Positions 28,150-28,580 of a stretch of DNA of 64,000 bases are shown in pieces. Position 1 is the stretch's first letter. Every line of letters begins with the position of its first letter. This DNA is from the human T2T-CHM13v2.0 reference genome, Homo sapiens: NCBI GenBank assembly GCA_009914755.4, contig CP068257.2, positions 35,200,001 through 35,264,000 on the forward strand, in the 5' to 3' direction. The notes under the pieces were generated by a model. The model ran no database searches, had not been told where the DNA came from, and was given only the letters and a program-made list of their open reading frames with translations. A program made the position numbers and the translations under genes.

Positions 28150-28245
28150 TGGGCAAACCTAGATTCAAATTCTGCACTTCTTAGCTGAGTGACCTCGAAG
28201 CCTCTGTTTCCTCATCTATAAAATGGGAATATTGCCATTTCTAGA
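28150..28245 (-). mobile_element. MIR SINE fragment (antisense), source of the adjacent minisatellite
   Basis: 'gcacttcttagctgagtgacctcgaagcctctgtttcctcatctataaaatgggaatattgcc' is the reverse-strand MIR core ('..gggcaagtcacttaacctctctgagcctcagtttcctcatctgtaaaatggggataataatagt..'). Confidence 0.5.
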
Positions 28246-28580
28246 GCTCTAAAAGTTGATACAAAGTAGGTACTCAATAAATGTTGAGTTCCTAAAGGTG
28301 ATACACAGTAGGTACTCCATAAATGTTGGTTTCCTAAAAGTGATACATAGTAGACACTCCATAAATTTAGTTTCCTAAAGTTGATGTGTGGTGGGCACTC
28401 AGTAAATGTTGGCTTTGTAAAGTTGGTACATAGTAGGCACATAATAAATGTTGCTTCCTAAAGTTGATACCTAGCGGCAGTCAATAAATGTTGGTTTCCT
28501 AAAGAAAATACACAGTAGGCACTCAATAAATGTTGGTTTCCTAAAGTTCCTATACATTAGGCACTCAATAAATGTCGAGG
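28245..28580. repeat. Minisatellite of a ~41-bp unit, ~8 copies, derived from the MIR 3' tail ('agtaggcactcaataaatgtt')
   Basis: Consecutive units 'aaagttgatacaaagtaggtactcaataaatgttgagttcct', 'aaaggtgatacacagtaggtactccataaatgttggtttcct', 'aaaagtgatacatagtagacactccataaatttagtttcct', 'aaagttgatgtgtggtgggcactcagtaaatgttggctttgt', 'aaagttggtacatagtaggcacataataaatgttgcttcct', 'aaagttgatacctagcggcagtcaataaatgttggtttcct', 'aaagaaaatacacagtaggcactcaataaatgttggtttcct', 'aaagttcctatacattaggcactcaataaatgtcgaggtcct'. Confidence 0.85.

What the first reader, a model, noticed from the sequence alone, without database searches (positions are those of the whole stretch)
28150..28580. Eight-copy ~41-bp minisatellite grown out of a MIR element's 3' tail
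An antisense MIR fragment (28150-28245) sits next to a tandem array of eight diverged ~41-bp units. Each unit carries the MIR 3'-tail motif 'agtagg(c/t)actcaataaatgtt'. This looks like an ancient SINE tail expanded into a minisatellite by local tandem duplication. Inter-unit divergence is estimated by eye at ~15-25%, so the array is old. Arrays like this can be length-polymorphic, and the unit contains the AATAAA hexamer eight times in one orientation.
Basis: seen in the sequence. Interest (0 to 1): 0.5.

Follow-up and report, generated by a model that had tools for sequence, protein, structure and literature searches.

The report
Old minisatellite from a MIR tail
The last ~42 bases of an ancient MIR SINE in a primate genome were copied head-to-tail eight times long ago and have since decayed; this is a routine kind of repeat-derived minisatellite with no sign of function.

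Summary
The tandem array is real. Tandem Repeats Finder reports period 42, 7.8 copies and 78% matches at 28252-28575. I count eight units of 40-42 bp at 28252-28584.

The unit consensus matches the 3' end of a MIR consensus recalled from memory: positions 228-256, 27/29 identical, about 10 SD above shuffles. A MIR core (positions 47-148) lies 9 bp upstream at 28158-28231, collinear and on the same strand. All eight units share the same departures from MIR, so they descend from one founder that had already decayed. The units differ from their consensus by K2P 0.154, so the expansion is very old.

Three details in the finding are wrong:
- The MIR is sense on the + strand, not antisense.
- The period is 42, not 41.
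- AATAAA occurs five times, not eight.

I found no Rfam match, no Pfam match and no excess conservation. The window is primate, with at least 30 Alu copies. Minisatellites derived from transposable elements are well documented (PMC3389668, PMC9659126). Copy-number polymorphism could not be tested. Verdict: ordinary, low interest.

The parts
28158..28231 (+). MIR SINE core (consensus positions 47-148). It is 5'-truncated and carries internal deletions.
   Evidence: Local alignment to the recalled MIR consensus: 74 aligned bases, 13.5% mismatches. A blastn hit on the + strand covers MIR 117-256 at 28200-28331.
28232..28240 (+). A 9-bp linker standing in for MIR positions 149-202, which implies an internal deletion of about 45 bp.
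   Evidence: This is the gap between the alignments.
28241..28251 (+). Lead-in to the array, corresponding to MIR positions ~203-214 (TAGAGCTCTAA against TAAAGCGCTTAGAA).
   Evidence: Alignment of 28241-28290 to MIR 203-256. TRF's 83-bp reading starts the array at 28249.
28252..28293 (+). Unit 1 (42 bp); carries AATAAA at 28276.
   Evidence: 90.5% identical to the unit consensus. Shares T in GGTAC with unit 2 and GAG with unit 8.
28294..28335 (+). Unit 2 (42 bp); carries CATAAA.
   Evidence: 90.5% identical to the consensus. Shares two variants with unit 3.
28336..28376 (+). Unit 3 (41 bp); carries CATAAA.
   Evidence: 78.6% identical to the consensus.
28377..28418 (+). Unit 4 (42 bp); carries AGTAAA. 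It is the most diverged unit, with 8 transitions.
28419..28458 (+). Unit 5 (40 bp); carries AATAAA at 28443.
   Evidence: With the last bases of unit 4 it aligns to MIR 210-256, window 28413-28456, 35/44 (MIR 209-256).
28459..28500 (+). Unit 6 (42 bp); carries AATAAA at 28483.
28501..28542 (+). Unit 7 (42 bp); carries AATAAA at 28525.
   Evidence: Aligns to MIR 228-256 at 26/29.
28543..28584 (+). Unit 8 (42 bp, full length); carries AATAAA at 28567. The array ends at ...GGTCCT, followed by CTGTCC.
   Evidence: TRF stops at 28575 because the last 9 bases are diverged.

Best explanation
A MIR SINE inserted here in sense orientation on the + strand. After it had begun to decay, its last ~42 bp (MIR positions ~213-260, holding the AATAAATGTT motif) were duplicated in tandem. 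The likely mechanism is replication slippage or unequal exchange, and further local duplications brought the array to eight units. The array has since drifted neutrally. It is a decayed, non-coding minisatellite derived from a transposable element, and I see no evidence that it does anything.

Shown: the array exists, it matches the MIR tail, it is collinear with a MIR core, and the units have a single origin.

Inferred: the duplication mechanism, the age, and the lack of function.
For: 1. Period 42, 7.8 copies, 78% matches; eight regularly spaced anchors.
2. The unit consensus matches MIR 228-256 at 27/29, about 10 SD above shuffles, and only on the + strand. Segment 28241-28290 aligns to MIR 203-256.
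3. The MIR core (positions 47-148) lies at 28158-28231, 9 bp upstream, on the same strand and in the right order.
4. The recalled MIR consensus behaves as a real dispersed family. It also hits 1831-2015, 8939-8984, 14728-14881, 23821-23884, 42404-42531 and 61104-61311, with E-values from 1e-5 to 4e-26.
5. Single founder. All eight units have A where MIR has the G of a CpG (GCGC to GCAC). All eight have G in place of the second A of TAAG. All share the short form AAAGT-TGATAC where MIR has AACAGTGCCTGGCAC.
6. Stepwise local growth. Adjacent units share private variants: units 1-2 share T in GGTAC, and units 2-3 share C in CTCCAT and G at column 6.
7. Age. Pooled unit-to-consensus K2P is 0.154 over 332 sites, against 0.24-0.49 for other MIR copies versus the MIR consensus in this window.
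8. No function detected. There is no Rfam match at E<=1 and no Pfam match for ORFs crossing the array. Units of 41 and 40 bp break any reading frame. The invariant TAAAT run is not significant (P~0.05) and was itself the anchor I used to define the units.
9. The kind is well documented: 23% of human mini/satellites derive from transposable elements (PMC3389668), and SINE-derived minisatellites are reviewed in PMC9659126.
Against: - The MIR consensus came from memory. No curated Dfam or RepeatMasker model could be run.
- Direct copy-to-copy searches find only two weak core hits in the window, at E 0.005 and 0.012.
- The homologous L2 3' end fits the unit nearly as well, 26/29.
- MIR positions 149-202 are almost entirely missing between the core and the array, so continuity requires an internal deletion of about 45 bp.
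- The initiating mechanism left no clear trace. The terminal unit is complete. Only a 3-4 bp CTCT/TCCT similarity brackets the array, which is too short to count as evidence.
- No transcript, orthologue or population data were available, so absence of function and of polymorphism is not demonstrated.
Confidence: 0.88

Rival explanations
1. The array derives from the 3' end of a LINE-2 (L2) element rather than from the MIR. The L2 end is homologous to the MIR tail, and on this reading the MIR core upstream is an unrelated neighbour.
For: The unit consensus matches my recalled L2 3' end at 26/29. L2 has TAGG where MIR has TAAG, as the units do. [quoted passage not shown]
Against: - No L2 body precedes the array. 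My recalled L2 3' region hits only 40714-40834 in the window.
- A MIR core lies 9 bp upstream, in the same orientation and the right order.
- After AATAAAT the units read GTTGGTT as in MIR, not ATTTGTT as in L2. Per-unit scores favour MIR in six of the eight units, L2 in one (unit 3), with one tie.
Confidence: 0.05
2. The array is a working cluster of polyadenylation signals or another regulatory element, kept by selection. Five sense-strand AATAAA hexamers, each followed by TGTTGGTTT, would terminate or shorten a + strand transcript.
For: There are five AATAAA on the + strand. [quoted passage not shown]
Against: - Three of eight hexamers have decayed to CATAAA or AGTAAA.
- The TAAAT core is not conserved beyond chance (P~0.05, and biased by my anchoring).
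- Overall unit divergence, K2P 0.154, is in the same range as the decayed MIR copies elsewhere in the window, as expected under drift.
- No coding or RNA feature was found nearby.
- AATAAA is common throughout the window, with 145 occurrences.
Confidence: 0.04
3. The 42-bp period (14 codons) reflects a coding repeat in an exon.
For: 42 is a multiple of 3. The minus strand has open frames through parts of the array, at 28215-28457 (81 codons) and 28474-28788 (105 codons).
Against: - Units of 41 and 40 bp shift the frame.
- The minus-strand frame is interrupted between 28457 and 28474.
- There are no Pfam hits.
- The + strand carries TAA and TAG in every unit.
- The sequence is a recognisable SINE tail.
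Confidence: 0.01

Closest known systems
Minisatellites and satellites derived from transposable elements in the human genome (Ahmed & Liang 2012, PMC3389668)
   Same: Part of a transposable element is repeated head-to-tail at the site of that element and expanded by local duplication of units.
   Different: That survey required at least 95% identity between units and at least 40% GC. This array has 78% matches and its unit consensus is 14/42 = 33% GC, so it would have been filtered out. The main text of that paper never mentions MIR. The survey found younger, active elements to be the commoner source, whereas this array comes from one of the oldest mammalian SINEs.
Minisatellites derived from other SINEs: Alu-derived (Jurka & Gentles 2006) and the mouse B1-derived VNTR family (Bois et al. 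1998), both as cited in PMC9659126
   Same: A short internal or 3' segment of a SINE became the repeat unit of a local tandem array.
   Different: The source SINE differs: MIR is tRNA-derived, mobilised by L2, and active roughly 130 Myr ago according to PMC2553571. The B1-derived family is unstable and hypervariable. This array is heavily diverged, and I expect it to be stable (inference).
Poly(A) sites derived from the MIR/L2 3' end (Lee et al. 2008, PMC2553571)
   Same: The same sequence segment is involved: the last ~50 nt of the MIR plus strand, carrying AATAAA.
   Different: Those are single-copy tails shown to be used by genes. Here the segment is an eight-fold tandem array with no evidence of use, and three of its eight hexamers are degraded.

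Membership tests
MIR SINE (source element) | Similarity to the conserved MIR core (consensus positions ~50-150) | tested here: met
   Segment 28158-28231 aligns to MIR 47-148 with 64/74 identical aligned bases. The consensus was recalled from memory, but it also hits six other dispersed loci in the window.
MIR SINE (source element) | 3' tail homologous to the L2 3' end, with AATAAA on the plus strand | tested here: met
   The unit consensus matches MIR 228-256 at 27/29, score 50 against shuffles of 17.8 +/- 3.2. The published description of the tail is in PMC2553571.
MIR SINE (source element) | Core and tail collinear on one strand | tested here: met
   The core at 28158-28231 is followed by MIR 203-256 at 28241-28290, both on the + strand. 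MIR 149-202 is reduced to 9 bp.
MIR SINE (source element) | tRNA-derived 5' head (positions 1-46) | tested here: not met
   Nothing upstream of 28158 aligns. The copy is 5'-truncated or too decayed there. This is common for MIR copies and does not exclude a fragment from the family.
MIR SINE (source element) | Match to the curated Dfam/RepeatMasker model above threshold | not testable with these tools
   No library of transposable elements is available here. Rfam does not hold MIR, and the region gave no Rfam match.
Minisatellite | Head-to-tail repeats with a unit of about 10-100 bp and several copies | tested here: met
   TRF period 42, 7.8 copies; eight units. Size classes as given in PMC3389668.
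VNTR (polymorphic minisatellite) | Copy number varies between individuals | not testable with these tools
   No second haplotype was found. Scans for the flank and the unit junction gave nothing, or one chance microbial match. Base rate: about 1 in 5 human minisatellites is variable and about 3% are commonly so (PMC8096271).
TE-derived tandem repeat as defined by Ahmed & Liang 2012 | The tandem repeat overlaps or resembles a transposable element | tested here: met
TE-derived tandem repeat as defined by Ahmed & Liang 2012 | At least 95% identity between units and at least 40% GC (their inclusion filters) | tested here: not met
   78% matches. The unit consensus is 14/42 = 33% GC, counted directly from the consensus. 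These filters belong to that survey and do not define the phenomenon.
MIR/L2-derived functional poly(A) site | AATAAA or ATTAAA on the plus strand, 10-40 nt upstream of a cleavage site that is actually used | not testable with these tools
   The hexamer is present 5 times. Usage needs transcript 3'-end data. No sign of constraint was found.

The most novel reading that the evidence does not exclude
The array is a copy-number-variable VNTR. Its five intact sense-strand poly(A) signals, each followed by a GU-rich TGTTGGTTT, would act together as an intronic or 3'-UTR polyadenylation cluster. Allele length would then tune transcript termination of a host gene on the + strand.
Probability: 0.03. 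Interest if true: 0.4.

Novelty: new member of a known kind. Interest (0 to 1): 0.08.

Why it matters
It matters little. The locus is a clear example of how a very old SINE can seed a minisatellite. The shared founder mutations place the expansion after the insertion: the founder already differed from the MIR consensus at 2 of 29 well-aligned bases, and the units have since diverged from it by about 15%. [quoted passage not shown] Counting such arrays would slightly raise the estimated share of tandem repeats that come from transposable elements. The locus would gain interest only if it proved polymorphic or were used as a poly(A) site.

Tried and rejected
- Second haplotype or orthologue. I scanned metagenome contigs and genome contigs for the right flank GAGACCTTTGGGACCTCCACCAAGAC and found nothing. 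I scanned metagenome, genome and viral contigs for the unit junction AATAAATGTTGGTTTCCTAAAG. The only hit was L001, a 1.9-kb contig with no tandem repeat and no other resemblance to the array, which I take to be a chance match.
- Higher-order repeat. TRF's 83-bp reading scores barely above the 42-bp one (349 against 340). Identity at lag 2 (0.71) and lag 4 (0.73) is no higher than at lag 1 (0.74). Rejected.
- Selective constraint on the AATAAA core. The invariant TAAAT run is not significant (P~0.05), and it was also my anchor for defining the units.
- Known RNA family. None found at E<=1.
- Coding repeat. No Pfam hits, and the frames are broken.
- Published text for the MIR consensus. Smit & Riggs 1995 is not held, and no paper in the library prints CTCAATAAATGTT. 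The consensus therefore remains recalled from memory.
- MIR identity without any consensus. A sensitive self-search with 28150-28245 found only two weak core hits, at E 0.005 and 0.012. Both lie at loci that the recalled consensus also hits. This is supportive but weak.
- Gene context. The ten ORFs I submitted gave no Pfam family, so the host gene, if there is one, was not identified.
- Initiation models from PMC3389668. There is no incomplete terminal unit. Only a 3-4 bp CTCT/TCCT similarity brackets the array. Inconclusive.

Full report
**What kind of sequence this is.** The window has 42.8% GC and a CpG observed/expected ratio of 0.27. It carries at least 30 Alu copies, covering 12.7% of its bases, and a fragment of the C-terminal part of L1 ORF2. 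It is therefore primate nuclear DNA. No soft-masking is present.

**Checking the observation.** Tandem Repeats Finder reports an array at 28252-28575 with period 42, 7.8 copies, 78% matches and 2% indels, scoring 340. An 83-bp reading of the same array scores 349. It is the highest-scoring tandem repeat in the window.

Eight TAAAT[GT]T anchors lie 42, 42, 41, 42, 40, 42 and 42 bp apart. The 13-mer CTCAATAAATGTT, allowing one mismatch, occurs six times in 64 kb. All six are in the array, against 0.29 expected by chance.

I phased the array into eight units at 28252-28584, of lengths 42, 42, 41, 42, 40, 42, 42 and 42 bp. The consensus is AAAGTTGATACATAGTAGGCACTCAATAAATGTTGGTTTCCT. Mean pairwise identity is 73% (range 60-88%) and identity to the consensus is 79-90%. 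Identity does not rise at lag 2 or lag 4, so there is no higher-order repeat.

- The period is 42, not about 41.
- AATAAA occurs five times on the + strand (28276, 28443, 28483, 28525, 28567), not eight. Units 2 and 3 carry CATAAA and unit 4 carries AGTAAA.
- The MIR is in sense orientation, not antisense (see below).

**What the array derives from.** No library of transposable elements is available here, so I used a MIR consensus recalled from memory and treated it as a lead to be checked.

The check was whether it behaves as a real dispersed family in this window, and it does. Besides the locus under study, it hits 1831-2015(-), 8939-8984(-), 14728-14881(-), 23821-23884(+), 42404-42531(-) and 61104-61311(+), with E-values from 1e-5 to 4e-26. 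The last of these copies retains the tail.

Against this consensus:
- Segment 28158-28231 aligns to MIR positions 47-148 on the + strand.
- The unit consensus aligns to positions 228-256 at 27/29. The score is 50, against 17.8 +/- 3.2 (maximum 33) for shuffled units and 16 for the reverse complement.
- Segment 28241-28290, the lead-in plus unit 1, aligns to positions 203-256.

Core and tail are thus collinear on the same strand, with positions 149-202 reduced to 9 bp. Independently of my recalled sequence, Lee et al. state that the AATAAA of the MIR/L2 3' end lies on the element's plus strand (PMC2553571). In the window, AATAAA lies on the + strand.

**Single founder and relative timing.** All eight units share the same departures from the MIR consensus:
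- A in place of the G of a CpG (GCGC to GCAC).
- G in place of the second A of TAAG.
- A shortened AAAGT-TGATAC where MIR has AACAGTGCCTGGCAC.

These shared states mean the units descend from one founder that had already mutated, not from separate insertions. One caveat applies: the true source subfamily may itself have carried some of these states, since L2 has TAGG.

Adjacent units share private variants. Units 1-2 share T in GGTAC, and units 2-3 share two variants. The two edge units, 1 and 8, share GAG. This pattern fits stepwise local duplication, with the edges escaping later turnover (inference).

Pooled unit-to-consensus divergence is K2P 0.154 over 332 sites. Other MIR copies in the window lie at K2P 0.24-0.49 from the MIR consensus. 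The expansion therefore came well after insertion but is itself very old. With neutral rates of about 1-2.2e-9 per site per year (my own background knowledge), it dates to roughly 70-150 Myr ago. This is an inference with wide error.

**Mechanism.** The two initiation models summarised by Ahmed and Liang are slippage that leaves an incomplete terminal unit, and duplication between 5-20 bp flanking direct repeats (PMC3389668). Neither left a clear trace here. Unit 8 is full length, and only a 3-4 bp CTCT/TCCT similarity brackets the array. I therefore commit to replication slippage or unequal exchange as the most likely route, but this step is inferred, not shown.

**Tests for function.**
- There is no Rfam match in 27800-29000 at E<=1.
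- ORFs crossing the array have no Pfam match. Units of 41 and 40 bp break any reading frame.
- The invariant TAAAT run is not significant (P~0.05), and it was also my anchor for defining the units.
- Three of the eight poly(A) hexamers have decayed.

The best reading is neutral decay.

**Rivals.** The L2 3' end is homologous to the MIR tail and fits the unit at 26/29, against 27/29 for MIR. Sequence alone cannot separate the two. The adjoining collinear MIR core and the absence of an L2 body decide for MIR. A functional poly(A) cluster and a coding repeat are both unlikely, for the reasons above.

**Comparison with what is known.** Minisatellites derived from transposable elements are well documented. 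At least 7,276 human mini/satellites (23%) come from transposable elements (PMC3389668). Examples derived from Alu and B1 SINEs are reviewed in PMC9659126. Neither paper's main text mentions MIR, and the survey's filters (at least 95% unit identity, at least 40% GC) would exclude this array. It is therefore a further, older member of a known kind rather than something new. Standard genome-browser repeat tracks very probably already mark it (my expectation, not tested).

**Polymorphism.** This could not be tested. Scans of public contig collections for the flank and the unit junction gave nothing, or one chance microbial hit. The base rate is about one in five human minisatellites variable and about 3% commonly so (PMC8096271). 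With only 73% unit-to-unit identity, I expect this array to fall below that rate (inference).

**Verdict.** It is ordinary and of low interest.

Noticed in passing
window 42532-42597 (next to the MIR copy at 42404-42531, minus strand): An 18-bp x 3.7 tandem array with 93% matches abuts the 5' end of another MIR copy. Read on the minus strand, its unit TGTGGCTTCCTGGAGGGG resembles the adjoining MIR bases GCATGGCTTTGGAG (11/11 identical with a 2-bp gap). Shuffled units reach that score 7.5% of the time, so a second MIR-edge-derived array is possible but unproven.
   Followed up: partly
window 34121-34238 (+): A full-length match to 5S rRNA (Rfam RF00001) scores 53.7 bits against a gathering score of 38. 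It looks diverged from my recalled human 5S sequence (not aligned here), so it is probably a 5S pseudogene.
   Followed up: partly
window 2437-3010 and 56903-57453: Two GC-rich segments 54 kb apart, in direct orientation, are 70% identical over about 580 bp. Both carry long ORFs; the one tested (2434-3210) has no Pfam match. They are an unidentified old dispersed repeat or duplication.
   Followed up: partly
window 57664-57866: A 70-bp x 2.9 tandem repeat with 75% matches is the second-highest-scoring tandem repeat in the window.
   Followed up: no
window 53901-54222 versus 55174-55798: Inverted repeat arms are 86-92% identical, with Alu copies at 54352-54601 and 55348-55626 in or beside them.
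   Followed up: no
window 30496-30643 (-): A Metazoa_SRP match just above the gathering score (72.3 against 70 bits) coincides with an Alu copy at 30498-30776. It is the Alu's 7SL ancestry, not an SRP RNA gene.
   Followed up: yes
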